Positions 33,445-47,821 of a stretch of DNA of 64,000 bases are shown here, piece by piece. Source of the stretch: Salmonella phage vB_SenS-3; the sequence record OR896822.1; one strand, given 5' to 3'. The notes under the pieces are model-generated. The model did not search any database. It was not told where the DNA came from and saw nothing but the letters and a program-made list of their open reading frames with translations. The first letter of the stretch is position 1. The number at the start of each line of letters is the position of its first letter. Made by a program: the position numbers and the translations under genes.

Positions 33445-34074
33445 TAATAGTGGGGTGCCGAAACCACTTATGTAACAACACTGCCGTCCTAGTATAATAG
33501 GTATTATTAGGGCTTCACCGCCTGAAGATGTGGGTTCGAGTCCCACGGTCGGAAAGAGTTGGATAACTGGTGCTTCTAATGGCGAAGCAATCGCAGGCAG
33601 TTGCGCACTGCCAAAACCACGCGGTAGTTGGTTCCAGGCTAACCAACCACTCTTGAAAAGTATATACTACGGTTTTGCTTGTTCAGGAAGCTTCGCATCG
33701 AAAATCGGAGGTGCGATTTTATCAGACCGCGTGGAGGACGTCTCTCCGTTAAGTGACGAAAAGTGGGACGATTCAGGTAGAGCTGGATATGGAACACCTA
33801 TACATATGCGGAGTGCGCACAAAGCATATTGCGGTGGTACTAAACGAAATTAGGAGTCATGACCTGCACAAGTTTAGTATGTCATAACCGATGTACATTC
33901 AGTACAAAAACCACTGAAGCTAAGATAGATAGTCACCTTGACTTAAACTGGAAGATATTGTCTGACGGAAGGGCTGCAGAGCTTAATCTGAGGGGGCTGA
34001 CCCTACCTACCGTCGGGTATCTTTAAGAGTTCTTACGAGAACTCTTAAAGATACCTAAACATTAAGGAATACTG

Positions 34075-38925: not shown

Positions 38926-39003
38926 GGTTCTCAAGCTCATTTGGTATGAGCCGTCGCCTCATAAGCGAAAGGTAGGTAGGTTCGAATCCTCCGGGAGCCA
39001 CCA
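38926..39003 (+). tRNA. tRNA with CAT anticodon (Met or Ile2)
   Basis: acceptor GGTTCTC/GGGAGCC with G-U pairs; D-stem GCTC/GAGC; anticodon loop CTCATAA; CCA encoded. Confidence 0.7.
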
Positions 39004-40038: not shown

Positions 40039-40162
40039 AGTTACCTAATTTGGAAACATATCTGAATGAGAAGTAATTAAGCGAGTTGCTTTGAGGGATA
40101 AAGTCAGGATAGCCGGAAATATTCCACCTTGAGTTTAACCGACTTACTTTTCATTCAAATAT

Positions 40163-40243
40163 GGGGGATTGGCTCAGTGGCGACGGCGCCTGGCTGTAGA
40201 CCGGGTATATCACGCGGAGGTTCGAGTCCTCCATCCCCCACCA
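40163..40243 (+). tRNA. tRNA-Tyr (anticodon GTA), long variable arm
   Basis: acceptor GGGGGAT/ATCCCCC perfect; anticodon stem CCTGG/CCGGG, loop CTGTAGA; T-arm GGAGG-TTCGAGT-CCTCC; CCA encoded. Confidence 0.75.
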
Positions 40244-40251
40244 AAATTAAT

Positions 40252-40326
40252 GCACCTATCGTCTAATGGTTAGGACATCAGGATTTCAATCTGAGAATTG
40301 AACTCCGATTCTCCGTGGGTGTGCCA
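40252..40326 (+). tRNA. tRNA-Glu (anticodon TTC)
   Basis: acceptor GCACCTA/TGGGTGT; D-stem GTCT/GGAC; anticodon stem TCAGG/TCTGA, loop ATTTCAA; atypical T-arm; CCA encoded. Confidence 0.6.
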
Positions 40327-40335
40327 ATTAATAAT

Positions 40336-40406
40336 TGGGGTACGCATAGGTTGCTAGTGGGCCTCCAAAACCCATGAAAAGGTTTCGAATACCTTTACCC
40401 CTGCCA
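40336..40406 (+). tRNA. tRNA-Trp (anticodon CCA), atypical
   Basis: T-arm AAGGT-TTCGAAT-ACCTT perfect; acceptor 6 bp with U1/U72 mismatch; anticodon loop CTCCAAA; CCA encoded. Confidence 0.55.
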
Positions 40407-40412
40407 ATATTT

Positions 40413-40487
40413 GCACCTTTAGCTGAGATGGATTAGCGCTTGCCTGAAGAGCTTGAGAGGTTCGTTCAATTCGAACAGGGTGCACCA
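40413..40487 (+). tRNA. tRNA, probable Phe (anticodon GAA); anticodon stem imperfect
   Basis: acceptor GCACCTT/AGGGTGC; T-arm GTTCG-TTCAATT-CGAAC perfect; loop CTGAAGA fits Phe but stem has two U-U mismatches; CCA encoded. Confidence 0.55.
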
Positions 40488-40504
40488 ATTTGAAGGAGAT
40501 GCTG

Positions 40505-40777
40505 ATGCATCCTGAAAACTTCTTTATATACTGTACTAGTCCTTTGCTTAAACGCCGGATTAATAAAGTATATCACTACAGAGCTAGTCAACAGCCTTAT
40601 GTTTATGATTCTAGTGGAGATCATATTCCACTTGAGCAACTAGGGACTGATTATATGGTTTTGAAGCACTTTAATGAGGCGAAGATCTCTAGCGTTCATA
40701 ACCGACAAAACTCTAAAACGTGGTGGCATAAGAAGCGTAAGAAAGGCATCAAATTTCTTAAAAATGTAGTTGCTTAA
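40505..40777 (+). CDS. hypothetical basic protein
   Basis: ATG 40505 six nt after RBS AAGGAG, immediately downstream of the tRNA cluster. Confidence 0.45.
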   Translation: MHPENFFIYCTSPLLKRRINKVYHYRASQQPYVYDSSGDHIPLEQLGTDYMVLKHFNEAKISSVHNRQNSKTWWHKKRKKGIKFLKNVVA

Positions 40778-40798
40778 ATCCTTAAAGTTCTGTATAAT
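40770..40798 (+). promoter_or_regulatory. sigma70-type early promoter
   Basis: -35 TTGCTT, 17 bp, -10 TATAAT; -35 overlaps stop region of 40505..40777. Confidence 0.6.
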
Positions 40799-40826
40799 TA
40801 TTACATAAATTGAACTGGAGAACTAG

Positions 40827-41015
40827 ATGAAAGCACCTAAACCGAAATTAGTTAAGTTCGACTGCTGTGATACTGAAATCTTATTTACTAAGTTTGGTGA
40901 ATTTAAGATGTGTGAATGTGGAACATGTGGTTACGATCATGGTGATGGATATTATTGCAGAACCCTAGGGCCTTCTGAACTAATCCACTTCTCATGGCCG
41001 GAAAGTAAAGAATAA
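40827..41015 (+). CDS. small Cys-rich (zinc-ribbon-like) protein
   Basis: 62 aa; CC...CEC..CGYDH..YC cysteine pattern. Confidence 0.45.
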   Translation: MKAPKPKLVKFDCCDTEILFTKFGEFKMCECGTCGYDHGDGYYCRTLGPSELIHFSWPESKE

Positions 41016-41083
41016 TACGACCGTTGGCTGAATGGCTTAGGCGGAGGCCTGCAAAACCTCCTTATGTGAGTTCGAATCTCATG
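41008..41083 (+). tRNA. tRNA-Cys (anticodon GCA)
   Basis: acceptor CGACCGT/GCGGTCG; anticodon loop CTGCAAA; T-arm GTGAG-TTCGAAT-CTCAT; CCA encoded; 5' end overlaps stop of 40827..41015. Confidence 0.7.
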
Positions 41084-41235
41084 CGGTCGTCCAATTTGCT
41101 GAAAGAATTGTTAAATCAATTCAGGCACGCGTAGGAACACTGCCTCAGTAATTGAAAGATGAGGCACGGTTTGGAGAGGTATGCCGCTACACGCTACGGT
41201 GCTAACTCCGTCTAGGTGAAAATCCTAGTCAGCAA

Positions 41236-41318
41236 TATAAATTTAGGGTCGTTAGCCAAGCGGTTTGGCGGTGGACTGTTAATCCATGTCGAAAGACAAC
41301 GTAGGTTCGAATCCTACA
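41236..41318 (+). tRNA. tRNA with GTT anticodon (Asn-like) and 13-nt variable arm
   Basis: acceptor GGGTCGT/ACGGCCC; anticodon stem GTGGA/TCCAT, loop CTGTTAA; T-arm GTAGG-TTCGAAT-CCTAC perfect; CCA encoded. Confidence 0.6.
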
Positions 41319-41431
41319 CGGCCCGCCATATTCTATGTAGGATTAAGTAAACCGGTAGCCAACCAGCTATCATTACTGATATCGAATTCAGTCACAGATA
41401 CCATTTTTCACTAACAACTGAGGAAATAGAT

Positions 41432-41617
41432 ATGACAACTCGTGCAATTGCTCGACTAGAAGCTGATCGTGATAATCTGATTAATAATATTAAGGTTCGT
41501 GGTAATATTATTAAGGCTCTGAAAGCTGAACTTCTTGAAGAACTTCAAGGTCAAGTAGAGCGTCGTGAAGCTCTAAAAGAGGTTGAGGAAGCTATCGAAA
41601 AACTCAAGGCTGAATAA
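41432..41617 (+). CDS. hypothetical coiled-coil protein
   Basis: 61 aa ORF with RBS GAGGAAA. Confidence 0.45.
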   Translation: MTTRAIARLEADRDNLINNIKVRGNIIKALKAELLEELQGQVERREALKEVEEAIEKLKAE

Positions 41618-41620
41618 ATT

Positions 41621-42202
41621 ATGCACGGAATATCCTTACCCATTCCAGGGTTTGAGGAGTACTTAGTAAGTTTGGATGGGTTAGTATTTAGTATCAAATC
41701 AAACAAAATACTAACCCCAATAACCAGTAATTACGGATACTTATCTATACGTCTCCATAAAAATGGTCAACAGAGAAATACCGGTGTACATAGGATTTTA
41801 GCATGTGCATTTAAGAAATTACCAAGTCTAGACTCTGAACTAGAAGTTGACCATATTAACACAGACATTACTTATTGGGGTCTTAATAACTTACAAGTGC
41901 TCACAAAAGAGCAGCATCTAGAAAAGACTTTAAAAGATAAAGGATTTAGTAAACTAAACCATGATAATTGTTGTAAGGATTGTGGTAAAGCTATTTCTTT
42001 AAAAGCTGAAAAATGTCAGGAGTGCTCTTCACATAAACCAAAAGATATCTCTATAACTAAAGAAATAATCGAGGTTACAGTAAGAGAGCTAGGCTGGTCA
42101 GGTGCAGGGAGAAAGTTAAATTATTCAGATAATGGGTTGCGTAAAAGATACACTTCTTTAGGAGGCAATCCTAAAGAACTTAAAAAGTTAAAGGTACTAT
42201 AG
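41621..42202 (+). CDS. HNH homing endonuclease (NUMOD-like N-terminus)
   Basis: 193 aa; motifs HRILACAF...VDHINTD...NNLQ; Cys-rich C-terminal region; stop codon overlaps 5' end of tRNA-Asp. Confidence 0.7.
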   Translation: MHGISLPIPGFEEYLVSLDGLVFSIKSNKILTPITSNYGYLSIRLHKNGQQRNTGVHRILACAFKKLPSLDSELEVDHINTDITYWGLNNLQVLTKEQHLEKTLKDKGFSKLNHDNCCKDCGKAISLKAEKCQECSSHKPKDISITKEIIEVTVRELGWSGAGRKLNYSDNGLRKRYTSLGGNPKELKKLKVL

Positions 42203-42267
42203 TCTAACGGTTAGGATACTCCCCTGTCACGGGAGAGGTAGGGTTTCGATTACCCTTAGTACCGCCA
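42193..42267 (+). tRNA. tRNA-Asp (anticodon GTC)
   Basis: acceptor GGTACTA/TAGTACC perfect; anticodon stem CTCCC/GGGAG, loop CTGTCAC; T-arm AGGGT-TTCGATT-ACCCT; CCA encoded. Confidence 0.85.
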
Positions 42268-42273
42268 AATTAT

Positions 42274-42350
42274 ACATCCATAGCTCAACTGGTCAGAGCT
42301 ACCGCCTCTTAAGCGGAGGGTTGAAGGTTCAAGTCCTTCTGGGAGTACCA
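42274..42350 (+). tRNA. tRNA-Lys (anticodon CTT)
   Basis: D-stem GCTC/GAGC; anticodon loop CTCTTAA; T-arm GAAGG-TTCAAGT-CCTTC; acceptor with one A-A mismatch; CCA encoded. Confidence 0.65.
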
Positions 42351-42553
42351 AACAAATAGAGTAAAGGCTACAGTAGGTGCACCCTTACGGACTGCTACAC
42401 CGGACTCTATTCATTAACAAACATTCTAGCGTGGTGGAGAGGGGACACCAGCTGTGCGAGGGTAGAAGCTTGTTCGATTCAAGTGAAAGAATGGTTCTCG
42501 TAAATCCGCAGCAGTGATAGTAGGTTCAAGTCCTACCTAGATTGACTTATTAT

Positions 42554-42627
42554 GCGTTCGTAGTTAAAAGGTATAATTTTTGGTTGCCAACCAGAAGTTG
42601 AGGGTTCGATTCCCTCCGACCGCACCA
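42554..42627 (+). tRNA. tRNA-Gly (anticodon GCC)
   Basis: T-arm GAGGG-TTCGATT-CCCTC; acceptor GCGTTCG/CGACCGC (one mismatch); anticodon stem TTTGG/CCAGA, loop TTGCCAA; CCA encoded. Confidence 0.65.
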
Positions 42628-42878
42628 AATTTAGGTTTCTGCTTCCTAGAGAACGGACTCCTAGATAAACAAGGCGATGAGTTTCCGGCCGGTTCTAGTC
42701 GCTGAAAATCCTCCCGACCAGGTAGGTGTAGGTAAACGAAAGTTTACTTATTGAGTAGGTTCCGATAGATCGGCGGATCTATTCTGGCATTTAAGAGAAG
42801 TCTCGCAAACTTCTTTGTCAGCAGAGCGTTTGAAGCGTGAGGTGGCCTACACAATAAGTAAATTTATTAAAAACTCAT

Positions 42879-42907
42879 TTGCTATTTCACTTAATTCTCT
42901 TTATAAT
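42879..42907 (+). promoter_or_regulatory. sigma70-type promoter heading a tRNA transcription unit
   Basis: -35 TTGCTA, 17 bp, -10 TATAAT; tRNA-Pro begins about 33 nt downstream. Confidence 0.6.
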
Positions 42908-42939
42908 ATATCTTATAAAGTGAGTTAACAAAGAATATT

Positions 42940-43017
42940 CTCCGTGTAGCTCAGTTTGGCCAGAGCGTTCCGTTTGGGGCGGTAGGGTCGGGGGTTCAAA
43001 TCCTCCCACGGAGACCA
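42940..43017 (+). tRNA. tRNA-Pro (anticodon TGG)
   Basis: acceptor CTCCGTG/CACGGAG perfect; D-stem GCTC/GAGC; anticodon loop TTTGGGG; T-arm GGGGG-TTCAAAT-CCTCC; CCA encoded. Confidence 0.8.
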
Positions 43018-43023
43018 AACAAT

Positions 43024-43101
43024 TGCGGGTTAGATCTCTGGTAGAGATCGCTAGTCTCATAAGCTAGAAAGAGGTAGGTTAGATTCCTACACCCGCTTCC
43101 A
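43024..43101 (+). tRNA. tRNA with CAT anticodon (Met or Ile2), U1/U72 mismatch
   Basis: D-stem GATC/GATC; anticodon stem CTAGT/GCTAG, loop CTCATAA; T-arm GTAGG-TTAGATT-CCTAC; CCA encoded. Confidence 0.7.
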
Positions 43102-43120
43102 ATTTAATAGAGGATACGAA

Positions 43121-43285
43121 ATGAAATTATTTCGATTGGTAGTAAGTGATAGACGGTCTAGCAAAGATCGTTCGAAGTATACCTTAGCCCATTATGGGAA
43201 AGATGAAAATGAAGTAATGGCTGAATTTGGTATTAATCATCGCTACTTAGAAGTTTACTCTATTAAGGAAGTTTATCCGTATTAA
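43121..43285 (+). CDS. small hypothetical protein (54 aa) between tRNAs
   Basis: ATG-initiated ORF found by eye (not in the six-frame list, under 60 aa); ends at the nucleotide before tRNA-Lys. Confidence 0.3.
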   Translation: MKLFRLVVSDRRSSKDRSKYTLAHYGKDENEVMAEFGINHRYLEVYSIKEVYPY

Positions 43286-43363
43286 GGGTCGTTAGCTCAA
43301 TTGGTTAGTAGCACTTGCCTTTTAAGCAATAGGTTGAAGGTTCGAGTCCTTCACGACCCACCA
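43286..43363 (+). tRNA. tRNA-Lys (anticodon TTT)
   Basis: acceptor GGGTCGT/ACGACCC perfect; anticodon loop CTTTTAA; T-arm GAAGG-TTCGAGT-CCTTC; CCA encoded. Confidence 0.8.
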
Positions 43364-43372
43364 AATTACTTT

Positions 43373-43446
43373 GCTCGGTTAGTTTAATGGGAGAACCCCG
43401 TCTTTACACGGCGGTTGCGATAGTTCGATTCTATCACCGAGTACCA
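43373..43446 (+). tRNA. tRNA-Val (anticodon TAC)
   Basis: acceptor GCTCGGT/ACCGAGT; anticodon stem CCGTC/GGCGG, loop TTTACAC; T-arm GATAG-TTCGATT-CTATC; CCA encoded. Confidence 0.75.
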
Positions 43447-43471
43447 ATTAACTCAAAATAAGGAATTGCAA

Positions 43472-43825
43472 ATGCAATTATCAAGCAAGATTCAAGGCTA
43501 TTTTGGTCATGTAACAATGGAGTTCGCTATCTCTAAAGGTTGGGATTTCGAGCAAGATCTAGCTGAGTTCTACAAAGATATTGATCTGAACGTACCATAC
43601 ATGGGACTCTCCACTGGTCAAGAGATCACAGAAGGCGATGTGTTCAAGGCAAGTCAAGGTGAGGTAACACCTAGTTTTGCCAAGTTCTGGTTAGGACTTA
43701 CTTTGAAGGAAGATGCACCAGAGGATGGTGTGGTTATGCAGAGTATGCACTCTGGAAGCTCTGATTACCTTTTCGTTAGCGACGTTAAGGAACTACAAGA
43801 AATCGCTAAAAATGTACTTGCTTGA
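43472..43825 (+). CDS. hypothetical protein
   Basis: ATG 43472 after RBS AAGGAA (listed ORF starts at TTG 43466); acidic protein. Confidence 0.5.
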   Translation: MQLSSKIQGYFGHVTMEFAISKGWDFEQDLAEFYKDIDLNVPYMGLSTGQEITEGDVFKASQGEVTPSFAKFWLGLTLKEDAPEDGVVMQSMHSGSSDYLFVSDVKELQEIAKNVLA

Positions 43826-47381: not shown

Positions 47382-47454
47382 AGTTAGTTGGCAGAGAGGT
47401 TATGCACCTCCTTCATACGGAGCGCCTACAGTGGTTCAAATCCACTACTAACTA
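47382..47454 (+). tRNA. tRNA with CAT anticodon (Met or Ile2)
   Basis: acceptor AGTTAGT/ACTAACT perfect; anticodon loop TTCATAC; T-arm AGTGG-TTCAAAT-CCACT perfect; CCA not encoded. Confidence 0.65.
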
Positions 47455-47821
47455 CTAAACAGAGGATCAGATCATTGTACCAGATCCTGCTGAGAAGAGA
47501 GTCCACATTCTATAAATGGCCGGGCGTGACAGCAGGAAGTAGACTGCAACTCCATGCTATACAGGAGTATAAATGTAGAAGCTAGGGCTTTAGATAGCCA
47601 TTGTCTTAGCGTGAGCAATCACGTAGTTGCAACAGACCAGGGGATAGCAACGTTAAAATCAAAGCTCCTGTGCTTATTAAACTGAATGGGACTATCAATC
47701 CACAAGCCGGACTACGAGCGATTATCGGGTATTCACTTAATAAGCAAGCCTGCCTTCCAGTTTTTATCTTGCTTCTGGGTTAACAAAAAGCTGAGCCAAA
47801 TTCTAGCATCAGGGAGATCTA

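What the first reader, a model, noticed from the sequence alone, without database searches (positions are those of the whole stretch)
40336..43101. Atypical tRNA architectures: U1/U72 mismatched acceptor ends, a GTT tRNA with long variable arm, imperfect anticodon stems
The Trp(CCA) candidate at 40336 and the CAT tRNA at 43024 both begin with U opposite U at positions 1/72. The GTT-anticodon tRNA at 41236 carries a 13-nt variable arm, unusual for Asn. The Phe-like tRNA at 40413 has two U-U mismatches in its anticodon stem, and the Glu candidate at 40252 lacks a canonical T-arm. These could be pseudo-tRNAs, tRNAs with altered identity or nuclease resistance, or misfolds from hand analysis.
Basis: seen in the sequence. 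Interest (0 to 1): 0.5.

Follow-up and report, generated by a model that had tools for sequence, protein, structure and literature searches.

The report
Odd tRNA genes in T5-like phage
The five odd-looking tRNA genes are real features of a T5-like Salmonella phage: one looks like a start-codon tRNA, one is an asparagine tRNA with an extra hairpin arm that turns out to be common in phages, one is a known working phenylalanine tRNA, and two look damaged.

Summary
The window is an Epseptimavirus (T5-like Salmonella phage), and all five loci are orthologues of tRNA genes annotated in T5, BF23 or phage 5.

- CAT tRNA, 43024-43101: the T5 'tRNAfMet' orthologue. U1·U72, G2-C71 to G6-C67 and A11:U24 match E. 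coli initiator tRNA, but the three G:C anticodon-stem pairs are missing. The window has a private C56→A.
- Asn(GUU), 41246-41328: carries a real extra hairpin (GUC-GAAA-GAC) supported by compensatory changes. More than 100 viral contigs hold GUU tRNAs with such arms on unrelated backbones. They were rare among sampled cellular pattern matches, and no homologue was found in 5,426 E. coli genomes.
- Phe: the tandem U·U is conserved in 28 T5-like loci, and a review cites work on T5 tRNAPhe recognition by E. coli PheRS.
- Glu: disabled by a 9-bp inversion between GAGAAT/ATTCTC repeats, shared by 11 isolates.
- Trp: a 71-nt, D-arm-reduced T5 'tRNAW' orthologue that software misses. It is probably weak or dead.

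Most of this is already in GenBank annotation. The phage-wide extra-arm tRNA-Asn class seems undescribed.

The parts
40252..40326 (+). tRNA-Glu(UUC) gene with a disrupted T arm. The 9 nt at 40299-40307 (TGAACTCCG) are the reverse complement of the canonical CGGAGTTCA, flanked by the inverted repeats GAGAAT (40293-40298) and ATTCTC (40308-40313). Probably a pseudo-tRNA.
   Evidence: Rfam 35.2 bits with T-stem pairs broken. Not called by ARAGORN. Canonical allele in faergetype and other loci. The inverted form is identical in 17 records, 11 distinct isolates. The MFE has an 8-bp hairpin with a 5-nt loop in place of the T arm.
40336..40406 (+). tRNA-Trp(CCA)-like gene, 71 nt. It has U1·U72, G73, a reduced D arm (3 bp with a 5-nt loop containing GG), C31·A39, a canonical T arm and an encoded CCA. 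Orthologue of T5 'tRNAW(CCA)'.
   Evidence: ARAGORN finds it only at -ps80. No Rfam hit at E<=10. 95.8% identical to the T5 tRNAW gene over the 71 nt (94.4% for the 90-nt query with flanks). Nearly invariant in 12 loci. The T5 annotation says the CUA-anticodon version is not a suppressor.
40413..40487 (+). tRNA-Phe(GAA) with tandem U28·U42 and U29·U41 in the anticodon stem (bases 40440-40441 and 40453-40454).
   Evidence: Rfam 45.8 bits. ARAGORN fold. U·U pairs kept in all 28 T5-like loci, sequence 100% identical to T5. A review cites a study of T5 tRNAPhe recognition by E. coli PheRS (Kholod et al. 1997, cited in PMC9976931).
41246..41328 (+). tRNA-Asn(GUU), 83 nt, with G73. It has a class-II-like variable arm at 41288-41300 (GUC-GAAA-GAC plus an AAC tail). 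The acceptor stem is tRNA-Lys-like (GGGUCGU/ACGGCCC).
   Evidence: Rfam 59 bits. ARAGORN fold. MFE z = -2.3. Compensatory changes in the extra arm. Identical allele in phage 5, annotated as suppressor-convertible. Nearest paralogue in the window is tRNA-Lys(UUU).
43024..43101 (+). Initiator-type tRNA(CAU), orthologue of T5 'tRNAfM'. It has U1·U72, U73, G2-C71 to G6-C67, A11:U24, and the anticodon stem CUAGU/GCUAG. There is a private C56→A at 43081, giving the T loop UUAGAUU.
   Evidence: Rfam 44.1 bits. Fold. T5 and phage 5 annotation 'initiator tRNA fMet'. Alignment with E. coli metZ. 1:72 mismatch kept in 26 loci and in Proteus phage Stubb. None of 396 phage records carries the A at 43081.
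42879..42907 (+). Sigma-70-like promoter (TTGCTA, 17-nt spacer, TATAAT) upstream of the tRNA-Pro and initiator tRNA pair. It corresponds in position to T5 promoter P13a.
   Evidence: Consensus scan. T5 annotation of P13a upstream of tRNAP and tRNAfM. Homology of 42739-42923 to T5.
41621..42202 (+). HNH/NUMOD4 homing-endonuclease gene whose 3' end overlaps tRNA-Asp. It gives the context for allele turnover in the cluster.
   Evidence: Pfam NUMOD4 and HNH_3. Annotated as HNH endonuclease in S147.

Best explanation
The window is an Epseptimavirus (T5-like Salmonella phage). The five loci are genuine genes of its tRNA cluster, and each departs from the textbook cloverleaf for a different reason.

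1. 43024-43101 is the phage's initiator-type tRNA. The 1:72 mismatch, the acceptor pairs 2-6 identical to E. coli tRNAfMet and A11:U24 are the elements that formyltransferase reads. I therefore infer that it is methionylated, formylated and kept away from EF-Tu. Its anticodon stem has diverged and lacks the three G:C pairs. The window copy has a recent private C56→A that probably weakens the D/T-loop contact.

2. 41246-41328 is a working tRNA-Asn. It keeps the two AsnRS identity elements, the GUU anticodon and G73, on a tRNA-Lys-like body, and has gained a short GNRA-capped extra arm. This architecture recurs on unrelated backbones in many phages. I infer, without a test, that it is tolerated by AsnRS and the ribosome and is kept because it changes the surface next to the 3' strand of the anticodon stem. 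Anti-phage tRNases such as PARIS AriB cut at positions 40/41. About 35% likely as the cause.

3. 40413-40487 is the conserved T5 tRNA-Phe. Its tandem U·U pairs are a fixed family trait.

4. 40252-40326 is a tRNA-Glu inactivated in one sub-lineage by a 9-bp inversion between 6-bp inverted repeats, which looks like a template-switch type event.

5. 40336-40406 is the T5 'tRNAW' orthologue, a D-arm-reduced tRNA-Trp derivative that is probably a poor or dead decoder.

Alleles at these slots are swapped among T5-like phages, often together with homing-endonuclease genes.
For: Identity of the window: one mismatch in 3,401 bases to Salmonella phages vB_SenS-3 and RA40 (listed as 100.0%); the closely related S147 is classified as Epseptimavirus.

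Initiator:
- T5 and phage 5 records annotate the orthologue as 'initiator tRNA fMet'.
- The alignment with E. coli metZ shows G2-G6 and C67-C71 identical, and A11:U24. The two other CAU tRNAs in the window have C11:G24 and a paired 1:72.
- The mismatch is kept in 26 loci, one of them as U1·C72.
- It is also kept in the distant Proteus phage Stubb, with a compensatory G5-C68→A5-U68.
- The formyltransferase elements are the 1-72 mismatch and R11:Y24 (PMC9976931).
- A 1975 paper title reports fMet-specific tRNA coded by T5 (reference list in PMC4810235).

Asn:
- In a 14-sequence alignment the extra-arm helix is 100% paired and 3 of its 4 pairs show changes on both sides. The whole structure is 99.1% paired against 86% in shuffles, 0 of 500 reaching it.
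- 79 unique GUU tRNAs with extra arms came from viral contigs and related phages, with 42 distinct stems. 35 have a GAAA loop and 76 have G73. Mean best stem is 3.37 bp against 2.67±0.08 in shuffles.
- 104 of 121 pattern matches in viral contigs are such tRNAs, against 7 of 132 in cellular genomes. One of the seven lies in a phage-like array of 21 tRNA calls plus a tmRNA.
- No homologue in 5,426 E. coli genomes.
- The phage 5 allele, identical to the window's, is annotated as convertible to an amber suppressor.
- Asn identity is the anticodon plus G73 and can be transplanted into tRNA-Lys (PMC9976931).

Phe.

Glu inversion.

Trp.

Allele swapping linked to endonucleases: the class-I Asn allele (78 nt) always comes with a T5orf172 (GIY-YIG-like) ORF that overlaps it.
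Against: - No expression, charging or formylation data exist for this phage.
- The initiator reading fails one classic criterion, the three G:C pairs in the anticodon stem, and the discriminator is U73 rather than A73.
- The Trp-like gene is 96-100% conserved across genera whose flanking DNA is about 78% identical. That could mean it is functional.
- The nuclease-escape role of the extra arm is inference only. The window Asn keeps the host-like U36-A-A-U-C-C AriB site, whereas the PARIS-tested T5 allele is a different, class-I tRNA with a changed site.
- One T5 relative with its own tRNA-Asn still needed T5 tRNA-Asn to escape PARIS. Which allele it carries was not resolved.
- The pattern scans required CTGTTAATCC and GGTTCGA and stopped at 120 rows, so the frequencies are not a census.
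Confidence: 0.6

Rival explanations
1. All five deviations are adaptive. Each tRNA, including Glu and Trp, is functional and reshaped to resist host tRNA-cleaving defence nucleases.
For: - T5 tRNAs are shown to counter PARIS (Lys, Thr, Asn) and retron-Eco7/Septu (Tyr). In the Tyr case resistance is attributed to a 'distinctive variable loop'.
- Schlafen and AriB nucleases cut the anticodon arm at about positions 29-32 and 39-41, and tRNA-Phe(GAA) and tRNA-Met(CAU) are among the Schlafen targets.
- VapC of Salmonella LT2 cleaves tRNAfMet in the anticodon stem-loop.
- The Trp-like gene is strongly conserved.
Against: - The Glu change is a single inversion confined to one sub-lineage. It removes the T loop entirely, and relatives keep the canonical arm.
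- The T5 Trp allele gave no suppressor activity, while the alternative phage 5 allele did.
- BF23 carries ACA in place of CCA.
- No cleavage data exist for any of these five molecules.
Confidence: 0.15
2. The deviations, including the Asn extra arm, are not selected at the RNA level. They are neutral drift in a dispensable region, or DNA-level changes that alter homing-endonuclease target sites inside tRNA genes. They then hitchhike when whole alleles are swapped by homing.
For: - The tRNA region is non-essential: T5 deletion mutants lacking 11 or 17 tRNA genes are viable.
- Endonuclease genes overlap tRNA genes here.
- The 78-nt Asn allele is always linked to a T5orf172 ORF.
- SegB recognises a 27-bp site inside a tRNA-Asn gene at its 3' part.
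- Klebsiella phage Mineola carries both a SegB homologue and an extra-arm tRNA-Asn.
- Private changes such as C56→A and CCA→CTA show ongoing drift.
Against: - Extra arms occur on unrelated tRNA-Asn backbones, with conserved hairpin geometry and GNRA caps. This argues for repeated gain or retention under an RNA-level constraint.
- The U·U pairs in Phe and the 1:72 mismatch are invariant across genera, which is not what drift predicts.
Confidence: 0.25
3. Identity is altered. The extra-arm GUU tRNA is charged by SerRS, TyrRS or LysRS, so that AAC/AAU codons are partly recoded. Alternatively, the CAU tRNA at 43024 is an elongator or a lysidine-modified tRNA-Ile rather than an initiator.
For: - The Asn tRNA has a long arm, G73, G2-C71 and C11-G24. 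From my own knowledge these overlap the E. coli serine identity set, which ignores the anticodon.
- Its body is tRNA-Lys-like.
- Nematode class II tRNAs with Gly or Ile anticodons are a precedent: their anticodons correspond to neither Leu nor Ser (PMC3333845 abstract).
- The CAU tRNA lacks the three G:C pairs.
Against: - The anticodon plus G73 suffice for Asn identity even in a tRNA-Lys body (PMC9976931).
- G73 is kept in 76 of 79 extra-arm Asn tRNAs.
- The arm stem is only 3-5 bp, Tyr-like in size rather than Ser-like, and A73, which TyrRS needs, is absent.
- T5 annotates separate tRNA-Ile2(CAU) and elongator tRNA-Met genes. Their orthologues are at 38926 and 47382, and neither has initiator features.
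Confidence: 0.05
4. The odd features are artefacts of hand folding or of sequence assembly.
For: One coordinate was off by 10 nt (41236 against 41246). The C56→A is seen only in this window.
Against: ARAGORN, Rfam and RNAfold reproduce the folds. The same features are present in many independently sequenced phages.
Confidence: 0.02

Closest known systems
tRNA gene cluster of phages T5, BF23 and 'phage 5' (GenBank AY543070, AJ604530, AJ604531)
   Same: Same gene order (Tyr-Glu-Trp-Phe ... Cys-Asn ... Pro-fMet-Lys-Val). Phe is 100% identical, the Trp-like gene 96%, the fMet gene 97%, and Asn is identical to the phage 5 allele.
   Different: The window lineage has an inverted Glu T arm and a private C56→A in the initiator tRNA. 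T5 itself carries a different, class-I tRNA-Asn (78 nt) linked to a T5orf172 ORF.
E. coli initiator tRNAfMet (metZ, metW, metV)
   Same: CAU anticodon, unpaired 1:72, G2-C71 to G6-C67 identical, A11:U24.
   Different: U·U instead of C·A at 1:72. U73 instead of A73. The anticodon stem is CUAGU/GCUAG with one G:C in place of three. No BLAST similarity to any E. coli genome.
Bacterial class II tRNAs (Tyr, Ser, Leu)
   Same: An extra stem-loop between the anticodon arm and the T arm. The GUC/GAC 3-bp stem with a 3-nt tail resembles the arm of E. coli tRNA-Tyr (sequence recalled from memory, used).
   Different: GUU anticodon and G73. The acceptor stem and T arm are tRNA-Lys-like, and the D arm is that of a class I tRNA.
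Nematode V-arm tRNAs (nev-tRNAs) and bacterial allo-tRNAs
   Same: A long variable arm combined with an anticodon that class II tRNAs do not normally carry (PMC3333845 abstract; PMC7609411).
   Different: In those cases the arm carries the identity (Leu, Ser or Ala) and the anticodon is ignored. Here the identity elements of the anticodon's own amino acid are kept, so no recoding is expected.
T5 tRNA-Lys, tRNA-Thr and tRNA-Asn variants that neutralise PARIS, and T5 tRNA-Tyr that resists retron-Eco7/Septu
   Same: Phage copies of tRNAs that host defence nucleases attack. Resistance maps to the anticodon stem or to the variable loop.
   Different: The tested T5 tRNA-Asn is the class-I allele with a changed U36-A-A-G site. 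The window's extra-arm allele keeps the host-like site and has not been tested.

Membership tests
tRNA (Rfam RF00005) | Score at or above the curated gathering threshold (29 bits) with a full-length cloverleaf. | tested here: met
   Asn 59.0, Phe 45.8, CAT 44.1 and Glu 35.2 bits. The Trp-like locus does not meet this: no hit at E<=10.
tRNA (canonical cloverleaf), Glu locus | 5-bp T stem with a 7-nt T loop carrying T54-Psi55-C56 and A58. | tested here: not met
   T-stem pairs are broken in the Rfam alignment. RNAfold gives an 8-bp hairpin with a 5-nt loop instead. The canonical arm is present in relatives.
tRNA (canonical cloverleaf), Trp-like locus | D arm of 3-4 bp with a loop of 7-11 nt, and a paired 1:72. 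| tested here: not met
   3-bp D stem with a 5-nt loop, U1·U72 and C31·A39.
Bacterial initiator tRNA (tRNAfMet) | CAU anticodon. | tested here: met
Bacterial initiator tRNA (tRNAfMet) | No Watson-Crick pair at 1:72. | tested here: met
   U1·U72. Kept in 26 loci, once as U1·C72, and kept in Proteus phage Stubb.
Bacterial initiator tRNA (tRNAfMet) | Purine11:pyrimidine24 (A11:U24) in the D stem. | tested here: met
   G10-A11-U12-C13 paired with G22-A23-U24-C25. The other two CAU tRNAs in the window have C11:G24.
Bacterial initiator tRNA (tRNAfMet) | Three consecutive G:C pairs, 29:41, 30:40 and 31:39. | tested here: not met
   A29-U41, G30-C40 and U31·G39. It is therefore called initiator-type, not filed as a canonical member.
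Bacterial initiator tRNA (tRNAfMet) | Formylation of Met-tRNA by formyltransferase and use in initiation. | not testable with these tools
   Only indirect support: the T5 annotation and the title of Chen et al. 1975.
Class II (long variable arm) tRNA | Variable region of at least 10 nt that forms a stem-loop. | tested here: met
   13 nt, GUC-GAAA-GAC. Compensatory changes in relatives.
Class II (long variable arm) tRNA | Leu, Ser or Tyr (or Sec) anticodon and the matching identity elements. | tested here: not met
   GUU anticodon with G73, which is the Asn identity set.
tRNA-Asn | GUU anticodon plus G73 discriminator (the E. coli AsnRS identity set). | tested here: met
   G73 in 76 of 79 extra-arm relatives.
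tRNA-Asn | Aminoacylation with asparagine. | not testable with these tools
   No data. The phage 5 allele is annotated only as convertible to a suppressor.

The most novel reading that the evidence does not exclude
The extra-arm tRNA-Asn, and the sibling extra-arm Thr(UGU), Cys, Trp, Ile and Lys tRNAs seen in phage tRNA arrays, could form a phage-specific and so far undescribed tRNA class. In this reading a short GNRA-capped hairpin has been grafted repeatedly onto class I tRNAs as a structural escape from defence tRNases that dock on the anticodon arm or variable pocket (PARIS AriB, Septu/retron PtuAB, Schlafen, OLD). The synthetase identity elements stay untouched.
Probability: 0.2. Interest if true: 0.8.

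Novelty: new variant of a known kind. Interest (0 to 1): 0.45.

Why it matters
Phage tRNAs are now understood as counter-defence tools against tRNA-cleaving immune systems. Escape has so far been traced to point changes in the anticodon stem-loop or, for tRNA-Tyr, to the variable loop.

A widespread phage tRNA-Asn that keeps its identity elements but gains a whole extra arm would be a different, structural route. It can be tested directly with existing PARIS, Septu and Schlafen assays.

There are also practical points. Annotation pipelines miss the T5-type tRNA-Trp and the inverted tRNA-Glu, so published statements about which amino acids a T5-like phage 'covers' depend on the tool used. An initiator-type tRNA without the three G:C pairs is a natural test case for what initiation really requires.

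Tried and rejected
- **Tyr origin of the extra-arm Asn.** I considered an anticodon shift from tRNA-Tyr. Rejected: the best paralogue is tRNA-Lys(UUU), and the weak E. coli hits are tRNA-Lys.
- **Covariation in the Trp-like gene.** Twelve loci differ at only five positions (one gives a G·U, one a U·G), so nothing can be concluded.
- **BLAST of the initiator-type tRNA against E. coli genomes.** No match. I aligned it to metZ directly instead.
- **T2 tRNA-Asn.** I checked whether the SegB target in T2 has the extra arm. It does not; it is 75 nt.
- **Enrichment for ANN decoders.** I asked whether extra arms are limited to tRNAs that read ANN codons. They are not: Cys and Trp also carry them.
- **Identity of Bas34.** I could not establish which tRNA-Asn allele the PARIS-sensitive phage Bas34 carries.
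- **Literature.** Searches found no description of a class-II-like tRNA-Asn in phages. The library lacks most older T5 papers, including Chen et al. 1975.
- **Rfam at a permissive threshold.** No other known RNA family turned up in the region.

Full report
**What the window is**

The stretch 40100-43500 differs by one base in 3,401 from Salmonella phages vB_SenS-3 and RA40 (listed as 100.0%). It differs by two bases from S147 (99.9%), which is classified as Demerecviridae, Markadamsvirinae, Epseptimavirus. It lies in a cluster of 28 ARAGORN and 27 Rfam tRNA calls on the + strand between 33.4 and 47.5 kb. Richly annotated records exist for the same region of T5 (AY543070), BF23 and 'phage 5' (AJ604531). 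They include notes on which tRNAs become amber suppressors when given a CUA anticodon.

**Check of the observation**

The only slip is the Asn start, which is 41246 and not 41236.

- The Trp-like gene (40336-40406) is found by ARAGORN only at an 80% threshold. It has U1·U72, a minimal D arm and C31·A39. Rfam does not report it even at E<=10.
- The CAU tRNA has U1·U72.
- The GUU tRNA has a 13-nt variable region that folds as GUC-GAAA-GAC.
- The Phe tRNA has U28·U42 and U29·U41.
- The Glu gene lacks a T arm.

**The CAU tRNA (43024-43101)**

It is the orthologue of the gene annotated 'initiator tRNA fMet' in T5 and phage 5, next to tRNA-Pro as here.

Aligned with E. coli metZ, positions 2-6 and 67-71 are identical and the D stem has A11:U24. 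The two other CAU tRNAs in the window have C11:G24 and a paired 1:72. The 1-72 mismatch and the R11:Y24 pair are the formyltransferase recognition elements (PMC9976931).

The mismatch is kept in 26 T5-like loci. One of them has U1·C72, which is still a mismatch. It is also kept in the distant Proteus phage Stubb, where the neighbouring pair changed in a compensatory way, G5-C68 to A5-U68.

It fails one classic initiator criterion. The anticodon stem is CUAGU/GCUAG, not three G:C pairs. The same anticodon arm occurs in a Vibrio jumbo phage tRNA. I therefore call it initiator-type rather than a canonical member.

VapC toxins of Salmonella and Shigella cut tRNAfMet in the anticodon stem-loop (PMC4705866). 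A diverged stem could therefore matter, but this is speculation.

The window's T loop reads UUAGAUU. The A at 43081 replaces C56 and is found in none of 396 related phage records, the best of which has one mismatch. It is a private mutation or a sequencing error.

**The GUU tRNA (41246-41328)**

The same 83-nt sequence is in phage 5, where it is annotated as convertible to an amber suppressor. It is present in 17 of my first 28 loci, the window included; two more carry a variant with a compensatory change in the anticodon stem. T5 itself carries a different 78-nt class-I allele. That allele always comes with an ORF that overlaps its 5' end and has a T5orf172 (GIY-YIG-like) domain.

Relatives with the extra arm occur well outside the T5 group:
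- Proteus phage Stubb, with the stem GUUC/GAAC, one base pair added on both strands.
- The T4-like Klebsiella phage Mineola and the jumbo phage Munch, with GUCA/UGAC.
- The Epseptimavirus IrmaTschudi, with AUCC-GCAA-GGAU.

On a 14-sequence alignment the extra helix is 100% paired, and three of its four pairs change on both sides. The whole structure is 99.1% paired against 86% in shuffles (0 of 500) and 32-50% when partners are slid.

Of 121 matches, 104 are GUU tRNAs of 79-90 nt. With three further alleles from other loci, 79 unique sequences were analysed. Their acceptor stems are unrelated, 76 have G73, there are 42 different arm stems, and 35 have a GAAA loop. Hairpin strength is far above shuffles (3.37 against 2.67±0.08 bp).

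The same pattern in cellular genomes gave mostly chance matches. Only 7 of 132 are tRNA-like, and one of them sits in a phage-like array of 21 tRNA calls plus a tmRNA. No E. coli genome holds a homologue.

The body of the window's tRNA is tRNA-Lys-like. This fits the classic result that Asn identity moves into tRNA-Lys with the anticodon and G73. I conclude that it is a working tRNA-Asn with an added arm.

Why the arm is kept is not shown. PARIS AriB cuts host tRNA-Asn at 40/41, next to where the arm emerges, and T5 tRNA-Tyr resists PtuAB through its variable loop. The window allele keeps the host-like AriB site, and no test exists. A DNA-level explanation, immunity to homing endonucleases that target tRNA genes, is a serious rival.

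Extra arms also occur on Thr(UGU) (87 nt in phage 5), Cys, Trp and Ile tRNAs in phage arrays. A 90-nt Lys(UUU) call in one such array was not inspected.

**The Phe tRNA**

The tandem U·U pairs are present in all 28 loci, and the gene is identical to that of T5. A review cites Kholod et al. 1997, who found that T5 tRNA-Phe is recognised by E. coli PheRS differently at low and high Mg2+. I did not read the primary paper. RNAfold prefers a shifted 4-bp helix, so the arm is intrinsically weak.

**The Glu gene**

Relatives have the canonical arm CGGAG-TTCAATT-CTCCG. The window has the 9 nt between GAGAAT and ATTCTC reverse-complemented. The inverted form is identical in 17 records from 11 isolates, most of which are not annotated as tRNA-Glu there. 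Many others keep the canonical form. This is a real, lineage-specific inversion that removes the T loop.

**The Trp-like gene**

It is 95.8% identical over its 71 nt to the hand-annotated T5 tRNAW (94.4% for the 90-nt query that includes flanks). Its acceptor stem and anticodon loop look like a tRNA-Trp with A1 changed to U; I compared it with E. coli tRNA-Trp recalled from memory, not with a tool.

The T5 note says its CUA version is not a suppressor. Most other T5-likes carry an unrelated 77-nt allele in the same slot that is a suppressor when converted. BF23 has ACA in place of CCA, and a 2023 BF23 paper that used ARAGORN lists Trp as missing.

The gene is almost invariant while the surrounding region is about 78% identical between the window and T5. 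So function cannot be excluded. I rate it probably weak or dead as a decoder.

**Verdict**

Most items are already recorded in GenBank annotation of T5 relatives. The new points are:
- the phage-wide class-II-like tRNA-Asn;
- the inversion that explains the Glu gene;
- the private T-loop change in the initiator-type tRNA;
- the link between allele swaps and endonuclease ORFs.

Noticed in passing
window 33482-33555: A tRNA-like element with an 8-bp acceptor stem, a good T arm, no CCA end and 'UCA' in the anticodon position. ARAGORN calls it tRNA-SeC and Rfam gives 33 bits. It lies in the homologue of the T5 stable 'RNAX'; the T5 copy has ACU there.
   Followed up: partly
window 41329-41401: Homologue of T5/phage 5 'RNA3', directly after tRNA-Asn. 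It is a tRNA-like RNA that ends in ACCA and is annotated as of unknown function. The window copy has an A·C mismatch in the acceptor-like stem.
   Followed up: partly
window 42420-42546 and 42739-42923: Non-coding stretches homologous (84% and 88%) to T5 DNA that holds 'RNA2' (tRNA-like) and 'RNAIV' plus promoter P13a. Both RNAs are annotated as stable RNAs of unknown function. No Rfam family matches.
   Followed up: partly
window 41094-41245: A 152-nt non-coding spacer between tRNA-Cys and tRNA-Asn. It is absent from faergetype-type loci, where the two genes are adjacent. It holds a T-arm-like hairpin, CTAGGTGAAAATCCTAG, at 41212-41228.
   Followed up: no
window 47382-47458: The elongator tRNA-Met is followed by CTA instead of the encoded CCA seen in phage 5.
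   Followed up: partly
L020 3826-3902 (IMGVR_UViG_2974654585): The phage 5-type tRNA-Trp allele carries a CTA anticodon, so it looks like a natural or laboratory amber suppressor in a T5-like genome. ARAGORN labels it Pyl(cta).
   Followed up: no
L023 3832-3902 (BF23): The T5-type Trp-like gene has ACA instead of CCA in the anticodon position.
   Followed up: no
L003 1936-2022 (phage 5); L049, L052, L053, L055, L040, L075, L081 and other viral loci: tRNAs that are normally class I carry long variable hairpins in phage arrays: Thr(UGU) of 87 nt in phage 5, also Cys, Trp and Ile(GAU). Ile(UAU) tRNAs have 21-26-nt variable regions that share a CAGAT(T/A)A motif.
   Followed up: partly
L004 9734-10252 (T5 ORF T5.069): This 'hypothetical protein' has T5orf172 and MUG113 domains (GIY-YIG-like). 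It overlaps the 5' end of the class-I tRNA-Asn allele. Every locus with that allele has the same 592-nt distance from the start of tRNA-Cys to the start of tRNA-Asn.
   Followed up: partly
L258 4061-7952 (cellular genome contig): A phage-like array of 21 tRNA calls plus a tmRNA in 4 kb of a contig filed under a cellular genome. It includes an 83-nt Asn, a 90-nt Lys(UUU), a 93-nt Ile(UAU) and an 89-nt Glu.
   Followed up: no
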